A stretch of DNA of 64,000 bases, taken from NCBI RefSeq assembly GCF_009914755.1, contig NC_060932.1. One strand, written 5' to 3'. The stretch is from the human T2T-CHM13v2.0 reference genome, Homo sapiens. The position numbers and the translations under genes are program-made. Positions 5,960 to 44,124 of the stretch are shown in pieces (position 1 is the first letter of the stretch; each line of letters opens with the position of its first letter). The notes under the pieces were generated by a model that saw only the letters and a list, made by a program, of their open reading frames with translations, was not told the DNA's origin and searched no databases.

Positions 5960-6810
5960 TTTCACTTTTAATTTAAGCATACATACTTTTAAAAGTGCAC
6001 ATATTTTAAATATAGCTCTTGATGAATTTTCAGAAACTCAACAGCCTGAAGAACAAAGAAAAGAGCATTACTACATTCCCAGAAGCCCCCAGTGCTCCAT
6101 GCACTCAAAAATTACCCCCAAAAGGGCAACCCCTATACTACAGTCCAACACTAGAGGGTTAGGTAATCTTTTCTTTCTGGTTTCCTTTGCTGTGTATTAT
6201 TTTCTGAGAGAATTATTCATTTTGTTACGAGTAGTTATAGGTTCTTCATCCTAACTGCTATTTAATTTTCTATTGTCTCGATATATGTACTATAATTTAT
6301 TTATCCATTATAGCGTTGAAGGGAATCTGAAAAGCTCACAATTTTGGATGATTATGCATAGTGCCATTATGTGCTATTGATAATTTCTTAGTTACTAGTC
6401 ATATATTTTCTAGTACATGGATTTTGGTGACTTATGTATGAATTTCCATGGGGCTTATACCTGGGAATCAAATTGCTAGGTCATAGAAAAGACATATATT
6501 AAGAAACTATGGCCAAAGTATTCTAAATATTTTTTATTGAAGCACTTTATAAGCATTTCAGTTGCTATTTTTGCTAAAACTTAGTTGCATTTTCATTTCA
6601 TTTTATCAATTGTGAAATGTTATTTGCATTTTCCTGATGGCCAATGAGATCATATGTTTATCGGCCAACTGGACCAGATGTAGTATCTTTTAGAATGTGT
6701 CAATTGCCAGCTTTTCTCTTTGGTTAGCTCTCTTATCCTTACTGATTTTTAGGGTTTGTAAACGTTCTGGTTATAAGTGATTTACTGGATGAAGTATATT
6801 TTGAGATGTG
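5960..6810 (-). mobile_element. Old L1M 3'-end fragment (preceded by a probable L2 fragment at ~5600-5950)
   Basis: Antisense L1M 3' phrases: tttatttatccatt, tacctgggaatcaaattgctaggtcatag, tttgcattttcctgatggccaatga. Confidence 0.65.
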
Positions 6811-7178
6811 AAAAAATATTAAAGTATGTTTTATACTAATAACAGTAATTTGGTGATTCAAGATACAGAGAGAACTGCAGGAGAGAAACCCTTGAGTTAA
6901 CAGTAGTGTATGGGACCCAGGATAGTAGTAGCTGACCACTGAAGCTCTATAATATTTAAACTTTTGTTATAGCTAAATGTTTCTGATATTTACTATTATA
7001 AATGTGATGAGTATTTTAACTCGGTAAAATTTTACCCATATATTGGGTGATTTTCAGTTTCTAAATATAGGAAATATTGATTAAAAATAAAAAAATTAAG
7101 GCTTTTGGTGCAAATACATAGGTAAAGCATTTTGTGCTGTGTGCACTGGCTTTCTGTTATAAAGACATTGCTACCAAG
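6509..7178 (+). repeat. Copy A of a local duplication (partner at 11056-11812)
   Basis: 6615-7178 aligns directly to 11230-11812 with few differences. 6509-6540 and 6529-6621 are present inverted at 11056-11087 and 11141-11233. Confidence 0.97.
6837..6946 (-). pseudogene. Decayed exon with a PKD-domain-like C-terminal motif (duplicated at ~11470-11579)
   Basis: ttatag| acceptor at 6948-6947. Translation ASVVSYYYPGSHTLLLTQGFLSCSSLCILNHQITVI resembles the PKD consensus H-x-Y-x-x-P-G-x-Y-x-V-x-L-T...I-T-V. The donor (gtataa) is weak. Confidence 0.5.
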
Positions 7179-8403: not shown

Positions 8404-9032
8404 ATTTTTTTTTAAAAAGGGCTCCTTTCAATGTTAGCCAAGGAATATGGAGATAGGTCCTAGTGACCTAACATAGATTATCACTTTTTTCTCAGTTTTA
8501 GTCCAAGATTTCCAGCTTCCTTCCTCATTACAGAATATTTTTTTTCACCCTGCCTCACAATATAATTACCCTTCCAAATCCACCCTTTCTGAAGAATTAC
8601 AGATGCTTAGTTTTCTACATTGCTCATTATCAGTCACCCAAAGGTGGGAGCTGCATATGATTATTCTTCTCAGCTGATTTACTTCTCTGTTTGCAAGCAT
8701 CTCCTCATAAAATCTAGTCTAGGAGCTGGAGGACTTTTCCACCAGAAAAAAAAAAAAAAAAAAGTTAAACACGAGATGTAACCTGCATTAGGCCTGCTGT
8801 ATCCAGTAAGCAGTGATGTCTGTCAAGCCATGGCTGTATACCTTCACTTTCCACATCTCCGTGAGGCAAATAATAGGTTATTTCTATACTGAAAAGACTG
8901 CCAGACTATACTTTCCAGTGGCTAACGTAATTACAAACAATTTAGATCTTTTAACTCCCCTCTTTGTCTCTAATATTTTATCCTTCTAAGATGCCTAGAT
9001 TATAAAAAAAAAAAAAACTAAACGCCCCCCCC

Positions 9033-10905
<1,873 letters not shown>

Positions 10906-11055
10906 CTAAACCCACTTTCTTTAAGGCTTTTGGCTCTTTCCTCTCTGGTTATAATGGAAACAATATAAGAGACCTGGCCATGACAAGCCTAATTAATGGG
11001 AGGCAGTGGTGAGAAGTGGAAGTTCATCACGTCCTCTTTATTTCCACTCACAGGC

Positions 11056-11812
11056 TCAGTAAAAAATATTTAGAATACTTTGGCCATCCTAACTGCTATT
11101 TAATTCTGACAATGGTCAGAATCTAAATGGGAAACCTATGAACATTTCACAATTGATAAAATGAAATGAAAATGCAACTAAGTTTTAGCAAAAATAGCAA
11201 CTGAAATGCTTATAAAGTGCTTCAATAAAAAATGTTGTTATTTGCATTTTCCTGATGGCCAATGAGATCATATGTTTATCGGCCAATTGGACCAGATGTA
11301 GTATCTTTTAGAATGTGTCAATTGCCAGCTTTTCTTTTTGCTTAGCTCTCTTATCCTTACTGATTTTTAGGGTTTGTAAACATTCTGGTTATAAGTGATT
11401 TACTGGATGAAGTACATTTTGAGATGTGAAAAAATATTAAAGTATGTTTTATACTAATAGGTTTTATACTAATAACAGTAATTTGGTGATTCAAGATACA
11501 GAGAGAACTGCAGGAGAGAAACCCTTGAGTTAACAATAGTGTATGGGACCCAGGATAGTAGTAGCTGACCACTGAAGCTCCATAATATTTAAACTTTTGT
11601 TATAGCTAAATGTTTCTGATATTTACTATTATAAATGTGATGAGTATTTTAACTCGGTAAAATTTTACCCATATATTGGGTGATTTTCAGTTTCTAAATA
11701 TAGGAAATATTGATTAAAAAATAAAAAAATTAAGGCTTTTGGTGCAAATACATAGGTAAAGCATTTTGTGCTGTGTGCACTGGCTTTCTGTTATAAAGAC
11801 ATTGCTACCAAG
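11056..11812 (+). repeat. Copy B of the local duplication, with a scrambled/inverted left junction
   Basis: Patchwork: rc(6509-6540), direct(6247-6267), ~35 nt filler, rc(6529-6621), direct(6615-7178) carrying an extra 15 nt tandem duplication at ~11447-11474. Confidence 0.97.
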
Positions 11813-12229
11813 TAAATTAAATATATTATGTTAGATCAATAGGATGAATTACTATACCCCTACTGACTTACGTTTTTGAAGTAATTTTGGTAAAGACAAT
11901 GACAATAATGTGAAGCTAAGAAAAAATATGTGTGCTATATTTTTTGTATGTGCACTAATATGCAAACACATTCATACAAACATACATACCTACATAATAA
12001 AGCCAAATATATATATCATCATGTTAACACTGCTTGTTTCTGTGGAGATAAATGTTATCTTTTTTTCTTATTGTTTTCTAAGTTCTCTAAAATAAATTTA
12101 ATTCTGTGTTACAATTTCAGGAAAGGAAGCATCAGGATTGAATGATAGCCTGAGGGAAAAAGGAACAGACAATGATATGTCCTAGGGTTGGGCCTTCCTA
12201 AGGACTGACTAAATTTCTCTTTCTGGAGA

Positions 12230-12941: not shown

Positions 12942-13124
12942 CTGTTGATGGCAAACAATAACATTATGTGGAAAAATCATGGAACTAGAAGTCTATAAGT
13001 CACAAAATCATTCAGTCAAGGTGTACATTGAATGTGAAGGTGTTTTAAGGCATGTTAACACATTTATTATACTTATTACTTAACATATTCACAAACAGAA
13101 TATATGATAAAAATATATATCTTT

Positions 13125-15430
13125 TGAGGGAGGTGGTTCAAGATGGCTGACTAGATGCAGCTTGTATGCACCTCCTCCACAGAGAAGAACCAAAATAGCA
13201 CGTATATATTCACACTTCAAATAGATCATCTAAGCCAGAACACTGCAGTCCAATAGAGAAGCAATGGGAAGTAAATAAGAAGAGGGAAGGTAGGCAGCCT
13301 GCTTGGCTGGGATTGGCTGAGAACTGAGAAAAGTGCCCAGATGCTAGGAAAGGGCAGGTAAGAATCCCCCAGAGCTCCACATTCCCATTGCAAACTTTCA
13401 CAATCCTAGCTATTGGAAAATCCCTCAATCCATGCAGGCCTCAACACTAATACAGAGAGTTGCCCAGAGACTGCACAGAGGAACTACTCCAGAGAGGTAA
13501 TTCATGCTGAGTTCCACAGACTTCCAAACCCTGACCAGCAGCAGCCTTCTGCCATTCTGAAAGTTAAGCCCCCCAAAACTAAATCCTATCCTGGGGCTGA
13601 TGCTACTGTTGCTGCCCCAGACCAGGGAGGGGGAGAGAAGGCTGGGCACCTTCTTACACTGCAAGGACAAATGCCCCCACAGCTGCAGCCTTCAATGGTA
13701 ACAAACCACAATCTCCACAGCTAACCACCTACACAGCTCTCCTCGAGAATGGCTCCACCCTCCCCAATCTCAGGCCTGCAGCTGGTGTTATTCCAAGAGC
13801 CCAAACTATAAAAGTCTGTGTCCTGCCCTAGAGCTAGGGCTGTTGCTGCTTTTGCCACTGCTTGACCAAGGAGAAAGAGGGGAGGCTGGGCATTTTCACA
13901 TGCCGTGAGGACACATCACACCCTCACTGCTGTGGGCTGCTATGGGTCCAAAGGGCAAGGAAACCACGCATCACACAGCTACCTCCCTACATTGTCCTCA
14001 CTGAGAATAACCTCACTCCACCTGGTGGAAAACCCACAGTGTTGCTGCCACTGCCTACTGCTGAGCATTTTGCCAGTCTCCTGGGGACCACTCTGCCTCT
14101 GCCTATCTCTGCCAGCACCTGAATACACTACCAGGGTGCAAGAGGACAAGTCTGCTGGCCTGTCCCATTTCCCTAGTACTTGTGCACCCAGGGGCCTAGA
14201 AATTGCCCAGCCCAGTCCACCACCAATTGCATCTAAGTACTCCCCCCAGGGTCTGGGTTCAGGCCAACAAAACCTGCTGATAACACACAGCTGGCACTCA
14301 TCCACATGCACCGCCAACAAGAAAAGGTGAATGGCCCACTAAACTTGTTGCAGCTACCACAAACACCAATAGAACCTCTTGGGTGCCAGTAGGTTACTCC
14401 ACCACCACTACTGCCATTGTTCATATCAAATCCACTGCTAAGGGACCCAAGAACCCTCCAACATGCCTGGACCACCACGGACATTACTGACATCTGAGTA
14501 AGTCACCTGAAGCCCCACGAATCAGGTTGCTTGAACTCAATGACATTGGTGCCAGCATATGCCACACTGGAGCCCAAGGACAAGCATACTCAACCCAATG
14601 CTATTACCAGTAGGGCCTGAAGACTGGCTCACTTGGCATTATAATCCCCAATAAAACTTTACCACAGCTTCTACTAATAACTGCACCCTAAGCTACTAGA
14701 AAAATCACAGATATCACTGATGCTCTTTACAGCTAAATAAATCATATAGAGAGAAAACTACTGCATGCATCCAAAATCAAAGCAAAATGCCCTACCCAAC
14801 CAAATATATATTTATTCCAAAATATATATATATATATATATATATTCTGAAAAAGTCCTCTCCTATGAAAGAAAATTTTAAAATTTAGAAGAAACAACTG
14901 TTATGCAAGATGCATGGATATCAATGAAAAGACACAGGAAACATGAAAAAGCAAGGAAGTATGACACATCCAAAGGAATGATTATTCTTCAGCAATAGAT
15001 CCTAATCAAAATGGACTTCATAAAATCCCAGATAAAGATTTTAAAGAAGCTCAGAGAGATACAAGAGAATTGTGTAAAAAATATAGAGAAATTAGAAAAC
15101 AATTAAGAATATGAATTAGAAATTTACCAAAGACACAGACGTGTAAAAGACGACCAAACAGAAATTCTGGAACTGAATAATTCATCAAATTAATTACAAA
15201 ATACACCTGAAAGCTCCAACAATAGACTGGATCAAACATAAGAAAGGATCTCAGAATTTGAAGACAGAACTTGTCAAATAACATAGTCAGACAAAAGTTC
15301 AAGAAAAAGTCTATAAAATAATAAGCAAAGCCTTTGTAAAATTTGGGACAACATTATAATTTTCAATGTCTCTAGGAGCAAAAGGAGAACAAAAGCATCA
15401 GAAAACCTGCTTAACAAAATAATTAATAAA
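13125..15430 (+). mobile_element. Old L1 (L1PB/L1M type) 5'UTR and start of ORF1, 3'-truncated
   Basis: Starts gagggaggtggttcaagatggctgactaga, followed by a C-rich 5'UTR and then A-rich ORF1-like text (gaaattctggaactgaataattca, aatagactggatcaa). Confidence 0.8.
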
Positions 15431-21222: not shown

Positions 21223-23254
21223 CTAGAATATTTAATGTTTTCTCTCTTCACAAAGTAATAAGATAATTTTTCTTAACAAATATTACCGATTTTAAAGTAT
21301 GAATCTTAGAATGTGAGCCCTGAAAAAGACCTTGAGAAGTCTTCTAGTCCACATCTTTGTATCCCTATAGGTCGACTACAGCCCACCCTGGATAATGTTC
21401 ATTGATCCCATATTTAAATACTTCAGCAGGAAGAGGGTTCTTTTTATTTTTGTCTGTGGTAGGTTTCGACGTTTAATAACCCATAAAGCTCTTAGGAAAT
21501 TTTTCCTTATATCTACCCTAAATTACCAATGGCACACGGATTTAGATTTGAATCTTAAGTAACTAGAATAAATTACCTCTGCTATGGAAATAGACACCCT
21601 CTCTGAATTTGAAAAACTGTAGTCTCTGTGAAATAAACTGAAAATATTACTTCTCAGGGATGGAGTACGTGATTTTCAGTCAAGTGTCCCAACTCCACAA
21701 AGTGCTTGTGCTATAGTAAGCTAAACGACTAAATGGTCTTGGTGCAGCCCTCCAAGACACTTGTGAGCAGTGTAAACACCAGAGCCAAAACAGAATGCAA
21801 GAGATGAACCATGACAAGAAATCAGACAAAATTATGGTCAAGAGCCATCTGGGTGATGGGTTATGCACACACATAGGCATCCCACACACATCTCAGCAAA
21901 CACTATGTTTAAGAAGATGAGGACAAGCTGAGCCAAGGCTCCTATGCCTATCAGTGCTTCATGAACTACAAGGGGACTTCACCAACAGAGACTCTTTTCT
22001 AGGATTTTATTCTGATAATACCACTGTATTATTTGTGACTACACAACTTACTTATCTACAGGTGAAAATCTTTCTTTTTACTCATCCTCTAAGTTCATTT
22101 TGCCTAATATTTGACCTTGACATCTGATGACACGTGATGGTGGAAGGTCAAGGGTTTATGTGAACAGTCAGCATACTCTAGGAATGGAAGAAGGTGAAAG
22201 TTAAAAAATAAGTAAGTAGAGTTGGCAAGTTATTCAAGTTCTTATTAGTTGTGTCACTTCAGGTAGATTATTTAAGCTTTTTAAAGCTAAGTTCCTTCAA
22301 CAGTAAAATAGATGTAACCGTATCTACATCATGAGTTTGTATAAGGATTAAGTGGGTGCCATTATTCATGAGAAAAGCTTCGTACTCTTAACTATTGTTT
22401 CTGACAGTTAATGTATGAAAGCATGAACATGCTAATATTAAAGAAGCTTCATTTATTTTTAATTCAGTAAGCATTTGCCTATCATCTACCTAAGTATAAG
22501 ATCTAGGTTCAGGCTTGTTGGTGAAATCAAGAATGAATTAGAGAAAAATCTTAAATTCAATCTGTGAAAAAGAGATGTGAGGCTTATCTATCAAAATGTA
22601 GGTACTCAATAAATATTTGTCAATATTGTCAACCAACATTTCCCCTTGTACAAAATGAAAAAAGTTATTATAATGCAATATATAGCAATATTGGAGAAAA
22701 GTCAAGCTAAAGGGTCATATAGTTCAAATGGGGGAAACAGGTTAAAAAATGTCCAGATATGTAGATAACATAGGTCAGGAAGGGTTACAGGGAATTTTGA
22801 AAGTGTATGTGGTTTGTGGTCCAGGAAAAATATCTTTTGCACCATTTGCCTTCTGAATTTTGTCTTCTGAATATTATGCGTTATTAGCAGTTCTCAAGAA
22901 TCCCTAGAAATATATTATTTTTCCAGTTTAGCTGCCCTAGAAGGAGAAGGACACTGTCTTACTACATTTAAGGATCTTTACAGATAAGTAATAGAATGGG
23001 ACATCAGTCTCCAAAGAGGATAATTTCACCATTCTGTTTGAGGACATGTCTTCACCCATGCTAAAGGTTATGTTTACTCCAGTCTGGTTTTCCATGTGAT
23101 TCTCCCTCTTTTCTCTACTTGCAATCTTCCCACTCTACTGGCTTATTCTGTGTAGTTCAAGCCTCTAGCAATAAGGGAATAAAATCCTTAAATCTTTCAT
23201 CTTTATTACATTCTTTCACATCACAACCAAGCTGCTTTAAAAAGCATGTTGTGA

Positions 23255-25300
23255 GACTTTCTGTTTTTGGTCTAGCCTGTAAATAGTTTGGAAGTCACTA
23301 TTCCATCCTAACAATAAGTAAAAAGATGAACAAATGGAAAACTCAACAATTCTTCTTAGATCTGAGAGAGAAGTGAGGCCACAGGGCAAGGTGGTATCTC
23401 AAAAACTGGAAAGAGAGATAGACAGGTGGATATAAAGAATCACAATTCACTGGAGCAGAAAGCCATGAGCAGCAACCTCCACAGGGAACCAGAGTCAGAT
23501 GAGGAAAACCTGAATTGTGATTGAGAAACTGATGAAGGCTCAGAGTAGACACATTTGAGAGACGCAGACTCCAGTGGGACCCAGTCATTGGGGGCCCCCA
23601 CATTTTTGTGCATTTTTTCCATCAAGAGCTCTGCCAACTTCTCACAGAGAAAACTGGAGAAAAATTCCCTCAGACTTTCAGCAGAAGGAGGGAGAAAATA
23701 ACCACTTTGAAATATACCAGAGCATTCTGTGTCTGTTCTATTTAACCAGATATTTTGCCAGAGCTTAACCTATTGGAATTTTTGTCAGAGCCTTGCCAAT
23801 CTCGAAGAGAGGAAATACCAAACTCCAGCCCCACCTAGCTATCCTGTGAAACCTAGGAGAGTAGGAAAAAATAAATAAGAAGCATTTGTCAATATTGTCA
23901 ACCAACATTTCCAGCCCCATGTGGCCATCCTGTAAAACCTAAAAGAAATTCCCAGCCTAAAGGAACTTCACAGACCAGGGCACAGGATTATTAAAATACT
24001 GAGACATAATCATAGGACTATAGGATGCTTCCTCTCCCTGGACACCTTACTAATACATGACTAAAGGCCTATTTAACATAGTTCCTTTACCCAGTACATC
24101 ATGTCTGCCTTTCAACAACAATGACAAATTACAAGACATACTAAAAGCCAAAACCAGAATTTGAAGAGACAGAGTAAACACCAGAACCAGACTCAAATAC
24201 AGCAGTGATGTTGTAATTATCAGACCATAAATTTAAAACAACTATAACTAATGTGCTAAGCGGTCTAATAGAAAAAACAGACAACATGCAAGAACAGATG
24301 GACAATGTAAGCAGAAAGATGGAAATTCTGAGCCAATCAAAAAGAAATGCTAAAGTTCAAAAACGCTGTAACAGAAATGAAGAATGTCTTTGATAGATTC
24401 CTTAGTAAACTTGACATGGCTGAGGAAAGGAATCACTGAGCTTGAGGATATGTCAATAGAAACTACCAAAACTGAAAAACAAAGTGAAAAAGACTAACAA
24501 AAAACTGGAACAGAATATCCAAAACTTGTGACATGATGACAAAAGGAATAACTTACATGTAATAGGAATACCAGAAGTAGATAGATGAAAGAGAGAAAGA
24601 AACAGAAGAAATATTTAAAGCAGGAATTACTGACAATTTCTCAAAATTAATGTCGGACACCAAAGTACAGATCAAGGAAGCTCAGAGCACACCAAGAAGG
24701 ATGAATGTCAAAAATACTACACCTAGACATATCATAAACTGCAAAAAAAAGAAGGTAAATAAATCATGTTAAAAGACATCAGAGGAAAAAAATATCTATA
24801 CAGGAACAAAGATAAAAATTATATCTGACTTCTAAGAAAGGAGTAGAGTGAAATATTAACAGCATTGAGGAAAAAAACCCAACAACCTAGAATTCTATAC
24901 CCTGCAAAATTATTCTTCAAAAATGAAGAAGAAATAAAGTCTGTCTCAGATAAACAAAAATTAAGTGAATTTGTTGGCAGGAAATCTGCCTTGCAAAAAT
25001 GTTAAAAGATCTTCAGAGTTAAAGAAAATTATATAGGTCAGAAACTGTGATCTGCATAAAGAGAGGAAAAACACTGGAAAATGAATAAATGAAGGAAAAA
25101 TAAAAACTTTTCTTATTCTTAATTGATCTAACATATAAAAATTTGTTTAAAATAATAATATCAATATATCCAATTATGCATTTCTATGTGAATATAATTA
25201 CATGTATGCTTGTGTATAAATGGAAAGAATACCAGAAATGATACAAGGCCCAGAAGGGAGAAATTAAGAATATTTTGTTATTTTAAGGTATTTGCCCTAC
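23255..25300 (+). mobile_element. Old L1M 5'UTR/ORF1 fragment
   Basis: ORF1-like text (gacaacatgcaagaacagatggacaatgtaagcaga, caacctagaattctataccctgcaaaattattcttcaaaaatgaag). Confidence 0.8.
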
Positions 25301-30487: not shown

Positions 30488-33400
30488 GAGGGAGAGAGGA
30501 TTAAGATGGCATATAGGAGACAGGACTAGCTTGCAGCTCCCACTTGGACGGGCAGAGCGGCATGTGGTAACTTACATTGTGAACTTTTGCTCCAAGAATT
30601 ACCACAGGAACAACCAGGAAAGCCAAGAGAATCCACGGACCCTTTGAAGGAACTGAATCACCGCTGCAGGCTCCCTGAGATGCCAAAAACCTGAGAGTCT
30701 GATTGCTTTCTGCTTGCTTTCTCAGCAGGGAGGCTAGTGGTCTGGGGCAAGTCCTCACCCCTGGTCACTGGCTGCCTGGAAATAGACTCAGTGTGGTGTT
30801 GGGGGATCGGTCATGGTGGGAATGAGACTGGCCTTTAAGACTGCTGGCTGTGTGGGTGTGGAGTGAGTCCTGTGACTGCCAGCTTTCTCTCACTTCCCTG
30901 GTGACCTGTATGACTCAGCAGAGGTAGCCACAATCCTTCTGGAAATATAACTCCATTGGACTGGGAACCACACCCCTATCCCCACAGCAGCCACAGCAAG
31001 CCCTGCCCAAGGAGAGGCTGAGCTCAGACACACCTATATCTGCCCCCACCCACTGACCTTTCTCTACCAGCCCTGGTAGTGGAAGACAAAAGTTATAATC
31101 ACTTGGGAGTTCCATGGCCCTGCCCACTACCCTAGAAACCTGAATACTTAACCAGGTGTCCCTAGGGCAAGTTTACATCTTCCTTATAGGGGCCGCAGCT
31201 GATGCATGCTTGAAAGCACCACATCCTGCCTGGAGGCCAACCAACAAAAAACCAGAGCAATAAACAAAAACACAACCAAGGACCCTCACAGAGTACACTT
31301 CACTTCCCTGCTACCTCCACTGGAGCAGGTGCTGATATCTATCTACAGCTGCAAGACCTGAAGATGGATCACATCACAGGACTCTTTGCAGACACTCCCC
31401 GGTACCAGCCCGGAGCCCAGTAGCTCTACCGGGTGGTTAGACCCAGAAGAGCAAACACAATCACTACAGTTCAGCCCTCAGGAAGCCTCATTCCTAGGGG
31501 AAGAGGGAGAACACCACAAGGGAGCCCCCTGTGGGACAGAAGAATCTGAACAGCAGCTTTGAATCCCAGATCTTCACTCTGACATACTCTACCCAAAAGA
31601 AAAGAAACCAGAAAAACAATTCTGGCAATATGACAGAATAAGTTTCTTTAACTCTCTCAAAAGATCAACTAGCTCACCAGCAATGGATCCAAACCAAAAT
31701 GGAATTTCTGAATTGCCAGAAAAAGAATTCAGAAGTCGATTATTAAGCTAATCAAGGAGGCACCAGAGAAAGGTGAATTCCAACTTAAAGAAATAATAAT
31801 AAAAAAAAAGATACAGGATATGAAAGGAAAATTCTTCAGTGAAATAGATAGCATAAATAAAAAACAATTACAACTTCTGAAAATCAAGGTCACACTTATA
31901 GAAATGCAACATGCACTGGAAAGTCTCAGCAATAAAATAGAAAAAGCAGAAGAAAGAACTTCAGAGCTCAAAGGCAAGGCTTTCAAACTGACCCAATCTG
32001 TCACAGACAAATAAGAATTTTTAAAAATGAACAAAACCTCCAAGAAGTTTGAGACTATGTTAAACATCCAAACCTAAGAATAATTAGTGCTCCTGAGAAA
32101 GAAGAAAAATCTAAAAGTTTGAAAGACATATCTGAGGAATTAATCAAAGAAAATTTCCCGTCTTACTAGAGATCTAGACATCCAAATACAAGAAGCTCAA
32201 AGAACATGCAGGAAATTCATTGAAAAAAAGATTATTCCCTGCACACACAGTCACTGGGTTATCTAAAGTCAAGATGAAGGAAAAAATCTTAAGAGCTATG
32301 AGGCAAAAGCATCAGGTAACCTAGAAAGGAAAACCTATCAGATTAACAGCAGATTTCTCCGCAAAAGCCCTACAAGCTAGATTAACAGTAGATTTCTCAG
32401 CAGAACCCTGTGAGTTAAGGAGGTTATTTTTAGCCTCCTTAAACGAAACCATTATTAGCCAAGAATTTTGTATCAGCAAAACGAAGCTTCATAAATGAAG
32501 GAAAGATACAGTCTTTCCCAAACAAATGCTGAGAGAATTCACCACTACCAAGCCAGCACTACAAGAACTGCTAAAAGGAGCTTTAAATCCTGAAACAAAT
32601 CCTCAAAATGCACCAAAATAGAATGTCCTTAAAACATAAATCTCACAGGACCTGTATAACAATAACACAATAAAAACAACAACAAGGTATTTCAGGCAAC
32701 AAATAGCATGATGAATAGAATAGTATCTCTCATCTCAATACTAACATTAAAAGATACAGAATGGCAGAATGGATAAGAATTCACCAAAGAAGTTTCTGCT
32801 GTCTTCAGGAGACTTGCCTAACACATATGGACTCACATAAACTGAATGTAAAGGGGTGGAAAAAGACATTCCATGCAAAAGACACAAAAAAGCAAGCAGA
32901 AGTAGCTATTCTTATATCAGACAAAACAAAGCTTTAAAGCAACAGCAGTTAAAAAAGACAAAGAGAGGCATTATATAATGATAAAAGGACTAGTCCAACA
33001 AGAAAATACCACAATTCTAAATAAATATGCACCTAACACTGGAACTCCCAAATTTACAAAACAATTACTACTAAACCTGAGAAATGAAATAGACAACACA
33101 ATAATAGTTGTGGAATTTAATACTCCACTGACAGCACTAGACAGATCATCAAGACAGAAAGTCAACAAAGAAACAGTGGACTTAAACTATACAACAAATG
33201 GGCTTAACAGATATTTACAGAACATTCTGCCCAACAACTACAGAATGTACATTCTATTCATCAGCACATGGAATATTCTCCAAAACAGACCATACAGTAG
33301 GACACAAAAAAAGTCTTAGTAAATTTTTAAAAATTGAAATTGTATCAAGTACTCACTCAGACCACAGTGGAATAAAATTGTAAATCAACTCCAGAAGGAC

Positions 33401-36400
33401 CCTTCAAAGCCATGCAAATACATGGAAATTAAATAACCTGCTCCTGAATGATCATTGGGTCAACAATGAAATCAAAATTGAAATTTAAAAAATTACTCGA
33501 ACTGAACAATAATAGTGACACAACCTATCAAAACTTCTGGGATACAGCAAAAGCAGTGCTAAGAGGAAAGCTCATAGCCTTAAATGTCTACATCAAAAAG
33601 TCTGAAAGAGCACAAATAGACAATCTAAGGTCACACCTCATGGAACTCAAGACAGAAGAATAATCCAAACCCAAAGCCAGCAGAAGAAAAGAAATAACAT
33701 AGATCAGAGCAGAACTAAATGAAATTGAAACAACAACAACAAAAATGTACAAAAAATAAATCAAACAAAAATCTGGTTCTCGAAAATAAATAAAATTGAT
33801 AGCCTATTAGCAAGATTAACCAAGGAAAGAAGAGAGAAGATCTAAATAAGCTCAATTACAAATGAAATGTGAGACATTACAACTGATACCACAGAAATAC
33901 AAAAGATTATTCAAGGCTACTATGAACCCTTTTAAGGGCACAAACTAGAAAACCTAGAGGAGATGGATAAATTCCTAGAAATATACAACCCTCTTAAATT
34001 AAACCAGGAAGATACAGAATCCTTGAACTGACCAATAACAAGCAGAGATACTGAAATGGTAATTTAAAAATTTGCCAACAATAAAAAGTCTAGGACCAGA
34101 CAGATTCACAGCTAGATTCTATCCATTGACAATCTTATTGACACTATTCCAAAAGATAAAGAGGGAATCCTCCCTAAATCATTCTATGAAGCCAGTATCA
34201 CCCTAATACCAAAACCAGGGAAGGACATAGCAACAACAAAAAACTAAGACCAATATCCCTGATGAACATAGATATAAAAATCCACAACAAAATACTAGCA
34301 AATGGAATCCAATACTATATTAAAAAGATAGTCCACCATGATCCAGTTGGTTTCATACCAGGGATGCAGGGATAGTTTAACATAAGTAAGTCAATAAATG
34401 TGATATACCACATAAACAGAATTAAAAACAAAAATCACATGATCATCTCCATAGATGCAGAAAAGGCATTTGACAAAATCCAGCATCTCTTTATGATTAA
34501 AACCCTCAGCAAAATCAGCATAGAAGGGACATACCTTGAAGTAATCAAAGCCGTCTACAACAACCCTATAGCCAATATGATACTGAATGAGAAGTTGAAA
34601 GCATTCCCTCTGAGAAATGGAATAAGGAAAGGATGCCCACTTTCACCACTTCTATTCAATGTAGTACTAGAAGTCCTAGCCAGAGCAATCAGAAAAGAGA
34701 AAGAAATCAAGGGCATCTAAATCACACTAAAGAAAAAGTCAAACTGTCCCTGTTTGCTGATGATATGATCACATATCTAGATACCCTAAAGACTCATCCA
34801 AAAGTCTCCTAAAACTGGTAAATGAATTCAGCAAAGTTTCAAGATGCAAAATTTAGGTACACAAATCAGTAGCTCTGCTATACACCAGCAGCAACCAAGC
34901 TGAGAATCAAATCAAGAACTCAACCCCTTTCACTATAGCTGCAAAAAATAAAATAAAATAAAATACTTAGGAATATACCTAATGAAGGATGTCAAAGACC
35001 TCTACAAGGAAAACTACAAAACAGTCCTGAAAGAAATCACAGATGACACAAACAAATGGAAACACATCCCATGCTCATGAATGGTCAGAATGAATATCAT
35101 GTATATGACCATGCTGCCAAAAACAATCTACAAATTCAATACAGTTCCCATCAAAATACCATCATCATTCTTCACACTAGAAAAACAATCCTCTACTTCA
35201 TATGGAACCATAAAAGAGCTTGCATAGCCAAAGCAAGACTAAGCAAAAAGAACAAATCTGGGGGCATCACATTACCCAACTTCAAGCTATCCTACAAGGC
35301 CATAGTCACCAAAACAGCATCGTACTAGTATAAAAACAGGCCTATAGACCAACGGAACAGAATAGAGAACCCACAAATAAAGCCAAATACTTACAGCCAA
35401 CTGATCTTTGACAAAATAAACAAAAACATAAAGTGGCAAAAGGACACCCTATTTGACAAATGGTGCTGGGATAATTGGCAAGCCACAGCTAGAAGAATGA
35501 AACTGGATCCTCATCTCTTAACTTATTAAAGAAATCAACTCAAAATGAATCAAAGACTTAAATCTGAGGCCTAAAACCATAAAGATTCTGGAAGATAACA
35601 TCAGAAAAACCCCTCTAGACATTGGCTTAGGCAAAGACCTCATGACCAAGTACCCAAAAGCAAATGCAACAAAACAAAAAAAGATAAATAGATACAACTT
35701 AATTAAACTAGAAAGCTTCTGCACAGCAAAAGAAATAATCACCAGAGTTAACAGGTATATTACAGAGTGGGAGAAAATCTTCACAGTATATACATCCAAC
35801 AAAGGCCTAATATCCAGAATCTACAAAGAACTCAAACAAATCAGCAAGAGTGAAACAAACAATCCCATCAAAAAGTGGGCTAAGGACATGAATAGACAGT
35901 TCTCAAAAGAAGATATACAAATGGCTAACAAGCATATAGAAAAATGCTTGACATCACTAATTATCAGGGAACTGCAACTCCAAACCCACAATGTGTTACC
36001 ACCTCACTCCTGCAAGAATGGCAGTAATCAAAAAAAATCAAAAAGTAATAGATGTTGGCAGGGATGTGGTGAAAGGGGAACACTTTCACCTTGGTGGGAA
36101 TGTAAACTAGTACAACCACTATGGAAAACAGTGTGAAGATTCTTTAAAGAACTAAAAGTAGATTTATTGTTTGATCCAGCAATGCCACTACTAGGTATCT
36201 ACCAAGAGAAAAAGAAGTCATTATATGAAAAAAATACTTGCACACACACATGTTTATAGCAGCACAATTTGCAACTGCAAAACTATGGAACCAGCCCAAA
36301 TGCCTATCAATCAAAGAGTACCTAAAGAAAATGTGGTACATATATACCATAGATTACTATTCGGCCATAAAAAGGAATGAAATAATGGCATTTGTAGCAA

Positions 36401-36708
36401 CCTAGATGGAACTGGAGACTATTATTCTAAGTGAAGTAACTCAGGAATGGAAAACCAAACATGTGTTCTCACTCCTATGTGGGAGCTAAGCTATGAGGAC
36501 GCAAAGGCAGAAATAAGAGTGATACATTTGACTTTGGGGACTCAGGGGAAAGGGTTGGGGGTAGTGAGGGATAAAAGACTACATATCGGGTACAGTGCAC
36601 ACTGCTCGAGTAATTGGTGCACCAAAATCTCAGATATCAACACTAAAGAACTTGTTCATGTAACCAAATATCACTTGTTCCCCAAAAACCTATTGAAATA
36701 AAAAAAAT
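30488..36708 (+). mobile_element. Near full-length (~6.2 kb) L1PB-type LINE-1, both ORFs disrupted
   Basis: 5'UTR (aagatggc...ggactagcttgcagctcccac), ORF1 fragments, EN (NKYAPNTG), RT ([28 protein letters not shown]), L1PB-type 3'UTR and A-tail. Confidence 0.93.
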
Positions 36709-37721: not shown

Positions 37722-40700
37722 ATTTTATTTTATATTTTTACATTGTAGATTCAGGAGGTATAAGTGCAGGTTTGTTACATGAGTATATTGCATGATGCTA
37801 AAGTTTGGGCTTCTAATCATCCTGTCACCCCAGTGGCTAACATATTACCTGATAAGCATTTTTTAAACTCTTGCTCATCCCTCCCTCTCCCCTTAAAGAA
37901 TCCCTAGTGTCTACTGTCTCTATCTTTGTGTCTGTGTGTACTCAATTTTCTCACTTATAAGTGAGAAAATGAAGTAATTGGCTTCTTGTTTCTGTGTTAA
38001 TTCACTTAGGATAATGGCCTCCAGCCATACCCATGTTGTTGCAAAGGACATAGATTCACTCTTTTTTCATGGCTGCATAGTGTTCCATAATGTGGATGTA
38101 TCACATTTTCTTTATCCAGTCTACCATTGGTGAGCATCTGGGTTGATTTCATGTCTTTGCTGTTGTGAGCAGTTCTGCAATAAACATACAAGTGCAAGTG
38201 TCTTTTTGGTAGAACTATTTATTTTCCTTTGGGTAGATACCAAATAATGGGATTGCTGGATTGATGGTAATTCTATTTTTAGTTCTTTGAGAAATCTCCA
38301 CATTACTTTCCATGGTGGCTGAACAAATTTGCATTCCTATCAACAGTGTATAAGCATTCCCTTTTATTCACAACCTCGCCAAAATCAGTTATTTTTTGAC
38401 TTTTTAATAATAGCCATTCCGACTGGAATGAGATGGTATCTCATTGTGGTTTTGATTTGCACCTCTGTGGTGATTAGTGATGTAGAGCATCTTTTCATAT
38501 ATGTGTTGGTCACTCGTACGTCTTTTTTTGAGAAGTGTCTGTTCGTGTCCATTGTCCACTTTTTAATGGTGTTATTTGTTGTATTTTCTTGTTGATTTAA
38601 GTACCTTACAGATTGTGGGTATTAAACCTTGGCCAAATGCATACTTTGCAAATACTTTCTCCCATTATGTAGGATGTCTGTTTACTTTGTTGACAGTTTC
38701 TTTTGCTTGCAGAAACTCTTCAGTATAATTAAGTCCCATTTGTCTACTTTTAATTTGTTACATTTGCTTTTTGAGCCTTCTTCATAAATCATTTTCCTAG
38801 ATTAATGTCTAGAAGAGTATTTCCTAGGCTTTCTTCTAGGATTTTTATAGTTTGAGAACTTACATTTAAGTCTTTAAACCATCTTCAGTTAATTTTTGTA
38901 CACAGTGAGAGGTATGTGTACAGTTTCATTCTTCTGCATATGGATAGCCAGTTTTCCCAGTACCATTTATTGAACAGGGTATCACTTCCCCATTATTTTT
39001 GTTGACTTTGTCAAAGATCAGTCGGTTATAGGTGTGCAGCTTTATTTCAGGGATCTCCATTCTGTTCCATTGGTCTACATGTTTATTTTTGTACTAGTAC
39101 CTGCTATTTCAGTTACTGTGACCATGTAGTATAGTTTGAGCTTGGTGAGATGTGATGCCTCAAACTATACTTTTTGCTTAGAATTGTTTTGGCCATTACG
39201 ACTCTTTTTTAGTTCCATATGAATTTTAGAATATTTTTCTAATTCTGTAAAAAATGACATTGATAATTTGATAGGAATAGCATTAAATCTGTAGATTGTT
39301 TTGGACAGCCTGGCCATTTAATTGATATTGATTATTCCAATCCATAAGCACGAAATGCTTTTCCATTTATTTGCATCATCTATGATTTATTTTAGCAGTG
39401 TTTTGTAGTTTTCCTCATAGAATTCTCTCACCTCCTTAGTTAGATGTATTCCTAAGGATTTTATTTTTCTGCGTGGCTATTGTAAATGGATTGCATTCTT
39501 GATTTGGTTATCAGCTTGAACATTATTGGAGTATAGAAATGCTACTGACTTTTGTATGTTGAATTCATATCCTAAGACTTGGCTGAAGTATTTTAACAGA
39601 TCTAGAAGTCTTTTGGCAGGATCTTTATGGTTTTCTAGGTATATAATTGTATCATCAGTGAAGACAGATAATTTAACTTCCACTTTTTCTATTTGGATGT
39701 TTTGCATTTCTTTCTCTTGCCTGATTGTTCTGGCAAGAACTATGTTGAATAGAAGTGGTGAGAGTGGACATCCTTGTCTTGTTCCAGGTTTTAGAAAGAA
39801 TGCTTATAACTTGTTCAGTATAATGTTGGCTCTTGGTCTGTTATAAATACCCCTCATTATTTTGAGGTGTGTTCCTTCAATACCAAGTTTATTGAGAGAT
39901 TTTATCATGAAGGGATGCTGGATTTTATCAAAATTTTTCCTGTGGCTTTTGAGATCATCATGTGGTTTTTTCATTTTGCTTATGGTTGTAAATCACATTT
40001 ATTGATTTGTATATGTTGTACCCCACTTTTATCCTGGCAATAAAACCTACTTGATAATGGTGAATTAGCTTTGTGATGTGCTGCGGGATTTGGTTTGCTA
40101 GTATTTTATGGAGGATTTTTCATCTACGTTCATCAGGGATATTGGCCTGTAGCTTACTTTTTTGTTGTGTTTTTGCCAGATTTTGGTATCAGGATAATAC
40201 CAGTTTCATGGAATGAGTTAGGGAAGACTCCCTTTTCCTCAATTTTTTGGAATAAATGTATTATGATTGGTATCAGGACGTTTTTATATGTCTGGCAGAA
40301 TTTGACTACGAATCCATCTAGTCCAGGGACTTTTTGGATTGGTAGGGTTTTTTGTTTTTCTTATGGATTCATTTTCATTATTTATCATTAGTCTGTTCAA
40401 TATTTCTGTTTCTTCCTGGTTCAATCTTTGAAAGTAGTTCTTTCCAGGAATTTATGCATTTCCTTTAGGTTTTCTAGTTTGTGTGTATAGAGATGTTCAT
40501 AATAGTCCCTGAGGACCTTTTGCATTTCTGTGGGATCAGAAATAAACTCTTGTCATTTCTGATTGTGCTTATTTGGATCTTTATTTTTTCTCTCTGTTAA
40601 CTTACCTAGTGGTCTATCAATGTTGTTGATGAAATGAAAGAACTTTTCATTTCATTGATCTTTTGCCTGTTTTTTGGGGGGCCTAAATTTCACTTCATTC

Positions 40701-41266
40701 TTCTCTGATTGTAGTTATTTCTTTTCTTTTGTTAATTTTGGGTTTAGTTTCTTTTGTTTTTCTAGTTCCTTCATGTGCGAGGTTAGGTTGTTTATTTGCA
40801 AACTTTCTATCTTCTTGATGTAGGCATTTAGTGCTATAAACTTCCCTCTTAACAGTGTTATTGCTGTATCCCAGAGGTTTTTGTCTGTTCTTTCTCTATT
40901 TTCATTTGCTTCAAAGATTGTTTTGATTTCTGCCTTAGTTTTGTTGCTTACCCAAAAGTAAGCTGTAAGTTGTTTAGTTTCGATTAACTTGTGTGGTTTT
41001 GAGAGTTCCTCTTTGTATTGATTTCTATTTTTATTTCACTGTGGTTCATGAAGATGCTTGGTATAATTTATATTTGAATGTATTGAGACTTGATTTATGA
41101 CTGAGCATGTGGTCAATCTTAGTCAATCTTATGGTATGTTTCATGTGCAGATGAGAAGAAAGTATATTCCATGGTTGTTGCAAGGAGTATTCTGTAGATT
41201 TCTATTATGTCGAATTGCTCCATGTCAAATTTAAGTCCAGAATTTATTCCCAAAGTGCTGGTATTA
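37722..41266 (-). mobile_element. 5'-truncated older L1PA (about L1PA15/16-like), antisense to the host L1
   Basis: T-rich tail at 37722, 3'UTR gtgcaggtttgttacatgagtatattgcatgatgct, and ORF2 fragments on the minus strand ([14 protein letters not shown]). Confidence 0.9.
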
Positions 41267-41311
41267 CAGACATGAGCCACCATGCTCGGTCCCTATTTTC
41301 AATAATGAATA
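41267..41311 (-). mobile_element. Alu 5'-end remnant (~45 bp)
   Basis: tcccaaagtgctggtattacagacatgagccaccatgctcggtc is the reverse complement of Alu positions ~1-45. Confidence 0.85.
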
Positions 41312-44124
41312 GAACATCCAGACAGAAAATCAATAAGAAAACAGCAGCCATGAGCAACAATAGACCAAATGTACTTAACAGAAAAATGCAGAACTTTCCA
41401 CCCAACAGCAGAATGCATATTCTTCTCAAGTTCACATGAAACCTTCTCCAGAACAGATCACATGTCAGGTGACAAAACAAGTCTTAGCAAATATAAGAAT
41501 ATTAAAATAATACCAAATGTCTTCTCAGAGCACAACGTAATAAAACAATAGATCAAAAATAGAAAGCAAACAAGAAAATTTGCAAATATATGGAAACCAA
41601 ATGACACTCTCTTGAACAATCATTGAGTAAAAGAGAACATCAAGAGAATATTTTTAAAATACCTTGATACAAACAAAAATGCAAATAAAATCATCAGAAT
41701 TTATGGAATGTTGTGAAAACATTATTAAGAGTTTATAGCACTGAAGACCAACTTTTTTAAAAAGAAAGATCTGTATAAATCAATACAATTTTACAACTGA
41801 AAGAACTAAAATAAACACAAAGTCAGCAAAAAAAAAAGGAAATAATGCTGACTATAGCAAAAGTACACAAGGTAGGGAGTAGAAAAACAAACAGAAAAAA
41901 AAAAAAACCAAAAATTTTTTTTAAAGATAAATGAAATTGAGCAACACTTATCTAAGATAAAAAGGGAGAACACTCAAATAAACAAAATCAAAAATTGAAG
42001 GGTAAACATTGCAATGCATAACACAGAAATAAAAAAGATCACAGGGGATTATCATGAACAATTATATGCCAGCAAATTGGATAACCTGGAAGACTTGGAT
42101 AAATTCCTAGAAACATACAATTTACCAAGACTAATTCAAGAAGAAATAGAAAGCCTGCACAAACCATTAACAAAAATATTAAATCTGCTCTCAAAAACTC
42201 TTCAACAAAGAATAGCACAGTATCAGGTGGCTTCATGGGAAAAGTCTACCAAACTTCCAAAGAATGAATATCAACCCCTTTTATACCCTTCCAAAAGATA
42301 GAGAAACAAACACCGTCAAATTCATTTTGTGTGGCTTGATTCCAAAGCCAGGAAAAGGAAATACAAGAAAAGAAAACTACAAACCATATCGCTGAACAAA
42401 GCTGGAGCCATCACACTATCTGTTCTCAAAATGTGTTACATAGCTATAGTAATCAAAATATCATGTTACTGGCACAATAAAGACATATAGACCAATGGAC
42501 AGAATAGAGGACCAAGAAATAAAACCACACATTTACAGTTAACTGATCTTTGGCACAGGTGTCAAGAACACACAATGGGGAAAGGACAATCTCTTTAACA
42601 AATGGTGTTGGGACAACTGGATATACGCATGCAGAAGAATGAAATTAGACCCTTATTTCACCACATATTTCACAAAAATCAACTCAAAATGCTTAAAATA
42701 CTTTTGTCTTATACTTGAAACTAAAACTTCTGGAAGAAAACATGAAAAAAACCATCTTGGCATTGGTCTTGGCAATAACTTTCTGGATATTACATGAAAA
42801 ACACAGGCAACAAAAGCAAAAAAAGGCAAATGAGATTACATCAGACTAAAAGTCTCCTGCATAGCAAAGGGAACAATCAACAAAACCACAAGGCAATATT
42901 AAGAATGGGAAAAATATTTCCAACCCATATAACTGATAAGAAGTTAATACCCAAAATATATAAAGGACTTATGCAATTCAGTACCAAAAGAAAAACTCAA
43001 TTAAAAAATAGTCAAAAAGACTTAAATAAACACTTTTCAAAAGAATATATTCAGATGGTCAAAAAGTACATGAAAAGTTACTCAAAATCTCTAAACATTA
43101 GGGAAATACAAACCAAACAAAAATTGACACATCACCTCAAACATGTTAGAATGTCTGTTACCCAAAAGACAAAAGATATCAAGCGTTAGGATGTGGAGAA
43201 AAGGCAACCTTGTATACTGTTGGTAGAAATGTAAATTGATATAGCCATTATGGCAAAGAGTATACATGTTCCTTAAAAAATCAAAAACTATCACATGACC
43301 CAGTAATCCTACTACTGGGTATACATCCAAATAAGTTGAAAACAGAATCTTTCCCATGTTAATTGTAGCAGTATTCACAACAGCCAAGATATCTGGCATA
43401 TTATTTAGCCTTCAAAAGGAAGAAAATTCCGCCATAGGTGCAGCTGGAGGCCATTACACTAAGCAAAATAAGTAACACAGAGAAAGTGAAATACTGCATG
43501 ATGTCACATACATGTGGAATCTAAAATAGTCAAACTTACAGAAGCAGAAAGAGTAGAATGGTTGTTTGCAGGGGACTGAAGGGAGGAACATATGGGGTAA
43601 TGTTGGTCAAAGGATATGAATCTTCATTTATGCAAGATGAATAATTTCTGGAGATCTAATGTACACTGTGATAATGATAATTAAAAACAGTATATTGCAA
43701 ACTTGAAATTTCCTGAAAAGATAAATTAAGTCTTCTCACCATACATACATAAGTGGTAAATATGTAGAGGCAATAAATATGTTAATTAGCTGGAATTTAC
43801 AATGTATATGTATATCAAAACATCAAATTGTACACCTTAAATACATAAAATGTTGTCAATAGTCTGTCAATAAACCTGTTAAAAATATTATGAATTTGAT
43901 TGTGCTGATGGTTACACAACTCTGTGGATATACCAAAATCTATTGAATCTGTACACTTTATATAGGTGAATTGTTTGTGAATTTTATCTCAATAAAGCTT
44001 TTTACCACAAAAAAATAAATAAATTTTTTAAAAAAGGCAATCATGTTCCAGAATCCACGTTCTGTTTGCTTTTCAGAAACCATGTTTTTGATTATTATCC
44101 TGCACTGCCTCTCATGCTAATTTA

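What the first reader, a model, noticed from the sequence alone, without database searches (positions are those of the whole stretch)
11056..11240. Multi-step template-switching scar built from pieces 4.5-4.8 kb away
The junction is a mosaic: rc(6509-6540); direct 6247-6267 joined through CAT microhomology; ~35 nt filler containing a hairpin ATTCTGAC-aatg-GTCAGAAT; rc(6529-6621); then direct 6615 onward through AAAT microhomology with a GTT stutter. Serial short templated inserts in both orientations with microhomology are the recognised signature of FoSTeS/MMBIR or polymerase-theta-mediated repair.
Basis: partly seen in the sequence, partly recalled or inferred. Interest (0 to 1): 0.7.

Follow-up and report, generated by a model that had tools for sequence, protein, structure and literature searches.

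The report
Old multi-switch DNA repair patch
A 753-base patch of human intergenic DNA is stitched together from four copies of pieces lying 4.5 kb away plus a small hairpin, likely the scar of one break repair in an ancestor's germline a few million years ago; it is a tidy example of a known kind of mutation, with no sign of function.

Summary
The flagged junction is the left quarter of a 753-bp insert (11060-11812): rc(6536-6509), direct 6247-6267, a 35-nt filler, rc(6621-6529), then direct 6615-7178.

New here:
- The flanks overlap by AGTAAA in register (chance 0.25-1.7%), so this is probably a clean insertion.
- The donor is the original: it stays colinear with an old L1 ORF2 relic across the switch point.
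- The hairpin is a 15-bp fold-back whose left arm is donor-exact, so synthesis likely ran left to right, short tracts first.
- The copies differ at 7 of 703 bases, so this is not an assembly artefact and is about 2-13 Myr old, or younger.
- The neighbouring PLK1 retrocopy (~9% diverged) is a separate, older event.
- No poly(A) tail or L1 target site was found.

Best reading: a germline break patched by microhomology-primed, multi-switch copying from a nearby donor (repair-mediated duplication, SDSA/MMBIR-like). FoSTeS, MMBIR and Pol theta cannot be told apart from one allele. No ape or population sequence could be checked. Known class, unusually intricate instance, no functional evidence.

The parts
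11060..11812 (+). Whole complex templated insertion, 753 bp (ends ambiguous by 2-4 nt)
11058..11063 (+). Entry: AGTAAA, repeated at 11811-11816; TAAA plus an imperfect TCA match to the inverted donor
   Evidence: chance 0.25% in register, 1.7% over 7 registers
11060..11087 (-). Tract 1: inverted copy of 6509-6536, 28 nt exact
11085..11105 (+). Tract 2: direct copy of 6247-6267, 21 nt exact, entered through CAT
11096..11130 (+). Fold-back hairpin: left arm 11096-11110 (first 10 nt donor-exact), loop 11111-11114, right arm 11115-11130 with one extra base and one substitution
11106..11140 (.). 35-nt filler; about 9 nt before and 10 nt after the fold-back copy have no significant template
11141..11233 (-). 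Tract 3: inverted copy of 6529-6621, 93 nt exact
11230..11812 (+). Tract 4: direct copy of 6615-7178, entered through AAAT, with a GTT stutter (11234-11239), 7 substitutions and a one-base A-run difference
11446..11474 (+). 15-bp tandem duplication inside tract 4, absent from the donor
11811..11816 (+). Exit: AG microhomology, then TAAA of the right flank
6247..7178 (.). Donor region; 6282-6800 is a ~60%-identical antisense relic of the 3' part of L1 ORF2, colinear across the switch points
9042..10905 (-). PLK1 processed pseudogene (LOC392226), about 9% diverged from the chr16 parent; separate, older event ending 155 bp from the insert

Best explanation
The 753-bp insert is a mosaic of copies from a donor 4.5-4.8 kb away, likely made in a single germline repair event in which a broken end copied the donor in several short microhomology-primed bouts before rejoining the other end. 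Shown: the pieces, their orientations, the microhomologies, the hairpin, the donor's priority and the 1% divergence. Inferred order on the + strand: (1) the end ...TCAGTAAA primes on the inverted donor and copies 28 nt; (2) it switches through CAT to 6247 and copies 21 nt; (3) a few untemplated bases are added and the strand folds back on itself for 15 nt (Pol theta-like snap-back); (4) it re-invades at 6621 and copies 93 nt on the inverted strand; (5) it switches through AAAT to 6615, stutters GTT and copies 564 nt with one 15-bp slip; (6) it is released and anneals through AG to the other end, with no net loss of target DNA (SDSA-like exit). It has no evident function; it is most likely a neutral scar.
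For: Pieces and joins. All four templates lie within 932 bp of one locus, and no other close copy was found in the genome. Flanks overlap in register by 6 nt, p 0.0025-0.017. Donor is original: rc(6270-6614) scores 102 against L1 sequence downstream of the part matched by 6615-6800, with 0 of 300 shuffles reaching it; the insert-side equivalent scores 41, with 192 of 300 reaching it. Polarity: the hairpin's left arm matches the donor exactly and the right arm carries the two differences. Two pieces from one locus in inverted order, joined by microhomology and captured at a break with 0-4 nt microhomology, is a described outcome in yeast (PMC11724301, sections read). No poly(A) or pre-existing L1 endonuclease site at either end.
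Against: No outgroup or population allele was seen, so the empty site, the single-event claim and the age are inferred. Two joins (either side of the filler) show no assignable microhomology, and about 19 filler bases have no template. A minus-strand order is also possible: tracts 3 and 4 both end at 6615-6621, as expected at a stalled fork. The substitutions lean toward the start of tract 4 only at borderline level (p 0.04 within the tract, 0.31 over all 703 bases).
Confidence: 0.72

Rival explanations
1. A replication fork moving leftward stalled near 6615-6621. The nascent strand folded onto the opposite template ahead of the fork, and the released inverted fragment was captured at a nearby break or gap (FoSTeS/ODIRA-like, minus-strand order).
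For: Tracts 3 and 4 diverge from the same point, 6615-6621, and all short templates lie on one side of it, within 370 bp. PMC11724301 proposes switching at replication intermediates followed by capture at a break.
Against: In this order the hairpin's second arm would have to match the donor better than its first arm does. The product looks much the same either way, so this is a variant of the best explanation rather than a different class.
Confidence: 0.15
2. L1-mediated insertion of a local transcript with twin priming, or an endonuclease-independent RNA-templated patch.
For: An inverted piece and a direct piece starting from the same donor point, with 4-7 nt overlap, is twin-priming geometry (recalled). 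The flanks share 6 nt. RNA-templated class 2 patches exist (PMC5110952, parts 1-2 read).
Against: No poly(A) at either end (longest A run 3 and T run 3 at the right end). The only TAAAA lies inside the donor-templated tract. Extra templates at 6247 and 6509 and the hairpin are not expected. The donor has no annotated transcript (gene table in the finding). The nearby PLK1 retrocopy is about nine times more diverged.
Confidence: 0.06
3. Several independent events accumulated: a simple 560-bp duplication (or a tandem duplication followed by deletion), with later small inversions and insertions at its edge.
For: The 15-bp tandem duplication and the A-run difference could be later events. The short tracts have 0 differences in 142 nt against 7 in 561 for the long tract.
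Against: All short pieces come from the donor locus 4.5 kb away, and 6247-6528 is not otherwise present at the acceptor. Repeated independent use of the same distant locus is unlikely. Zero differences in 142 nt is unremarkable at 1% divergence (about 1.4 expected).
Confidence: 0.06
4. Assembly or library artefact.
For: Fold-back chimeras do occur in amplified libraries (recalled).
Against: The copy differs from the donor by 7 substitutions (6 transitions, one at a CpG) and by indels, which is the pattern of real mutation. The whole 5.6-kb structure is shorter than a long read (general knowledge of the CHM13 data).
Confidence: 0.01

Closest known systems
Repair-mediated duplications by capture of proximal chromosomal DNA (Pace et al. 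2009, PMC2671141; seen only as search listing and start of abstract)
   Same: A germline insertion copied from DNA a few kb away on the same chromosome, without poly(A). Recalled, not read here: hundreds of such linked duplications up to about 600 bp in the human genome, attributed to SDSA.
   Different: This one has four templates in both orientations, a fold-back hairpin and two internal slips. Whether that paper lists multi-template cases or this locus was not checked.
MMBIR/FoSTeS complex junctions (Hastings et al. 2009, PMC2621351, listing only)
   Same: Serial short templated tracts, microhomology joins, short tracts before a long one.
   Different: It returns to the original site after 753 bp with no large copy-number change. 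It is apparently millions of years old, not a de novo disease allele.
Inverted double insertions and fold-back insertions at breaks in yeast (Yu et al., PMC11724301; abstract and three sections read)
   Same: Two adjacent pieces of one locus in inverted order joined by microhomology; 0-4 nt microhomology to the break ends; short fold-back copy.
   Different: Human germline; longer (93 + 564 nt); two further short templates.
Class 2 templated sequence insertion polymorphisms (PMC5110952; parts 1-2 of 4 read)
   Same: A break patched by copied sequence, with microhomology and untemplated bases, and no poly(A).
   Different: TSIP donors are distant and the insertions polymorphic. Here the donor is 4.5 kb away and polymorphism is untested.
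Short-range template switches in great ape genomes (PMC7954356; abstract and outline only)
   Same: Polymerase switch to a nearby template, preserved in hominid genomes.
   Different: Those events are small-scale, read as mutation clusters; this one spans kilobases and has several switches.

Membership tests
Repair-mediated duplication (SDSA-like patch; features partly recalled) | Insert copied from a closely linked donor that stays intact | tested here: met
   Donor 6247-7178 is intact and colinear with the L1 relic; no other close copy in the genome
Repair-mediated duplication (SDSA-like patch; features partly recalled) | Insert interrupts a previously continuous target with little loss | tested here: inconclusive
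   6-nt in-register overlap of the flanks, p 0.0025-0.017. The flanks lie in no recognisable repeat that could prove continuity, and no ortholog was available.
Repair-mediated duplication (SDSA-like patch; features partly recalled) | No retrotransposition marks | tested here: met
   No poly(A) or poly(T) at the ends and no flank-derived TTTT/A site
Repair-mediated duplication (SDSA-like patch; features partly recalled) | Empty site in an outgroup genome | not testable with these tools
   No primate genomes are held. One ape SV table was searched but was cut short and was inconclusive.
MMBIR/FoSTeS | Two or more templated tracts joined at microhomology | tested here: met
   Four tracts; CAT and AAAT joins
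MMBIR/FoSTeS | Origin at a collapsed or stalled replication fork, dependent on the replicative BIR machinery | not testable with these tools
   Cannot be read from a fossil allele
MMBIR/FoSTeS | Raised error rate near junctions (recalled) | tested here: inconclusive
   5 of 7 substitutions within 128 bp; p 0.06-0.13
Pol theta-mediated end joining | Templated tracts short (up to about 30 nt) and taken from the break flanks | tested here: not met
   Tracts of 93 and 564 nt, and templates 4.5 kb away (size limit from PMC11724301). Only the fold-back and filler fit.
L1 target-primed retrotransposition / class 1 TSIP | Poly(A) tail downstream of a polyadenylation signal | tested here: not met
   No A or T run over 3 nt at the right end; AATAAA only at 11224 and 11720
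L1 target-primed retrotransposition / class 1 TSIP | Target-site duplication of 5 bp or more at a TTTT/A site | tested here: not met
   The 6-nt overlap is all explainable as microhomology to the donor and is not at a TTTT/A site

The most novel reading that the evidence does not exclude
The insert is a young, human-specific or still polymorphic allele whose fold-back hairpin and error gradient record the strand and order of a five-switch germline repair, from sloppy short tracts to faithful long copying. Fossil scars like it across ape genomes would then form a dated, polarity-readable archive of germline MMBIR/Pol theta activity that current variant catalogues flatten into simple insertions.
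Probability: 0.15. Interest if true: 0.5.

Novelty: new member of a known kind. Interest (0 to 1): 0.25.

Why it matters
As a single locus it matters little. It is intergenic, 104 kb before NKAIN3, with no RefSeq functional element nearby (gene table in the finding). Its value is as a clean specimen: it shows that the multi-switch junctions known from genomic disorders and cancer can also resolve as small neutral insertions that persist in the human reference. The hairpin asymmetry also offers a way to read the direction of synthesis from a fossil junction. No paper naming LOC392226 was found (0 papers); none of the 15 papers listed for the NKAIN3 search mentioned that gene. Supplementary SV tables that I could not see may list the insertion.

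Tried and rejected
1) Filler from elsewhere. A 61-nt genome search found only the site itself. Local 7-9-mers are at chance level. The 11-nt match to 12096-12106 is not significant: 211 of 643 control stretches have a match of 11 or more.

2) Junction as the 5' end of the PLK1 retrocopy. Rejected: the parent alignment ends at 10905-10911, the retrocopy has its own degraded target-site duplication, and it is 8.8-9.3% diverged against 1.0% for the insert.

3) Proving flank continuity through a shared repeat. The left flank 10912-11060 and the first 1.3 kb of the right flank matched nothing else.

4) The window's own L1 copies did not align usefully to the donor; L1 loci from elsewhere in the genome did.

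5) Dating from published ape SV tables. One paper had no readable supplement. In PMC6749001, 12 of 14 files gave no chr8 row for five coordinate prefixes or NKAIN3. Its ape-specific table is cut short and showed no chr8 row among the places displayed (3 of 33 places of one term not seen). The GRCh38 position used (about chr8:62.145 Mb) rests on a recalled offset, and a young event would not be in that table anyway. Inconclusive.

6) A genome-wide baseline for such scars was not obtained. In 36 already-held loci of about 3.5 kb (124 kb in all) there was no inverted near-exact pair, and 1 of 36 had direct pairs. These loci are too short and too biased to give a rate.

7) Substitution clustering is borderline only.

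Full report
OBSERVATION. Self-BLAST of the window shows one near-identical pair among otherwise 64-86% repeat pairs: 6618-7178 copied directly at 11236-11812 and 6526-6621 inverted at 11141-11236. Exact matching resolves the left junction into rc(6536-6509) (28 nt), direct 6247-6267 (21 nt, through CAT), a 35-nt filler, rc(6621-6529) (93 nt), and the direct copy from 6615 through AAAT with GTT repeated. In 238 control stretches the longest local exact match had median 12 nt, and 1 of 238 reached 28. A genome search with the donor found no other close copy.

EXTENT. The direct copy ends at 11812, so the feature is a 753-bp insert, 11060-11812. The left flank ends and the right flank begins with the same six bases, AGTAAA, in register. 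Chance is 0.25% in register and 1.7% over seven registers. The simplest ancestral allele joins 11059 to 11813, with TAAA serving as entry microhomology (plus an imperfect TCA) and AG as exit microhomology. This is inference; no empty allele was seen.

WHICH COPY IS ORIGINAL. The donor is a decayed antisense L1 ORF2 relic. Pieces 6282-6366 and 6609-6792 fall on nearly one diagonal against L1 loci, while the insert's alignment stops at 11234. The donor stretch left of the switch point scores 102 against the expected L1 segment (0 of 300 shuffles reach it), and the insert side scores 41 (192 of 300). So 6247-7178 is ancestral and 11060-11812 is derived.

HAIRPIN. With DNA parameters the stem runs 15 positions (11096-11110 with 11115-11130) with one bulge. 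One of 1,077 control stretches has a comparable stem. The first ten bases of the left arm equal donor 6258-6267 exactly, while the right arm has one extra base and one substitution. The economical reading is that the left arm was made first and copied by fold-back. That puts synthesis on the + strand, with tracts of 28, 21, 15, 93 and then 564 nt. About 19 filler bases have no significant template locally or in the genome.

AGE AND REALITY. The copies differ at 7 of 703 aligned bases (1.0%; 95% interval 0.4-2.1%): six transitions, one at a CpG. There is also a 15-bp tandem duplication and a one-base A-run difference. At recalled rates of 0.8-1.0e-9 per site per year this gives 2-13 Myr, and at 0.5e-9 it gives 4-20 Myr. 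All seven substitutions lie in the first 330 bp of the long tract, which is borderline (p 0.02-0.04 within the tract, 0.06-0.31 overall). If some arose during the repair itself, the event is younger. An assembly artefact would not carry this spectrum.

NEIGHBOUR. The PLK1 retrocopy spans 9042 to about 10905, beyond its RefSeq span. It has a T-run and a degraded target-site duplication (CTAAAC at 9018 and 10906) and is 8.8-9.3% diverged from the chr16 parent. It predates the insert, which sits 155 bp from its CpG-rich 5' end (GC 0.63, CpG o/e 0.78). Whether that GC-rich end promoted the break is untested speculation.

MECHANISM. Best supported (0.72): one germline break whose end copied a nearby donor in several microhomology-primed bouts, with a fold-back step, and then rejoined the other end. 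The fork-stall order on the minus strand (0.15) is favoured by tracts 3 and 4 diverging from the same point but fits the hairpin less well. L1 twin priming or an RNA patch (0.06) shares that geometry but lacks poly(A) and a target site. Serial events (0.06) and artefact (0.01) are unlikely. Yeast work shows the same elements: fold-back insertions, and two inverted pieces of one locus captured at a break with 0-4 nt microhomology. It also states that POLQ alone mostly gives insertions up to about 30 nt (PMC11724301; abstract, two results sections and discussion read). Pol theta may therefore explain the filler but not the long tracts.

KNOWN CLASS. The closest is repair-mediated duplication by capture of proximal DNA (PMC2671141; listing and start of abstract only; further detail recalled). 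Related are class 2 templated insertions (PMC5110952, first half read), great-ape short template switches (PMC7954356, abstract and outline) and MMBIR (PMC2621351, listing). A search for LOC392226 found 0 papers.

VERDICT. Real, correctly described, and larger than flagged. It is a new and fairly intricate member of a known class of germline repair scars, with no evidence of function. Interest 0.25.

Noticed in passing
window 22615-22643 and 23884-23912: A 29-bp exact direct duplicate 1.27 kb apart with unrelated flanks; possibly a second, much smaller repair-templated copy.
   Followed up: partly
window 9042-10905 (-): The PLK1 retrocopy extends about 110 bp further 3' and 265 bp further 5' than the RefSeq span 9154-10640, and keeps a CpG-rich 5' end.
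   Followed up: partly
window 9018-9041 and 10906-10922: Probable target-site duplication of the retrocopy; the left copy has turned into C and T runs next to the tail, and the right copy ends at a TTT/AA site.
   Followed up: partly
window 33143-36447 and 37989-43331: Large old repeat copies in inverted orientation (64-70% identical), probably L1, with related sequence at 1-680.
   Followed up: no
L014 (C17:48.1 Mb), L015 (C7:49.8 Mb), L017 and L019 (C16:90.2 Mb): Other PLK1-like copies in the genome, 69-89% identical to this retrocopy.
   Followed up: no
window 13108-13300: Start of a high-copy repeat with at least 39 genomic matches at 75-89%.
   Followed up: no
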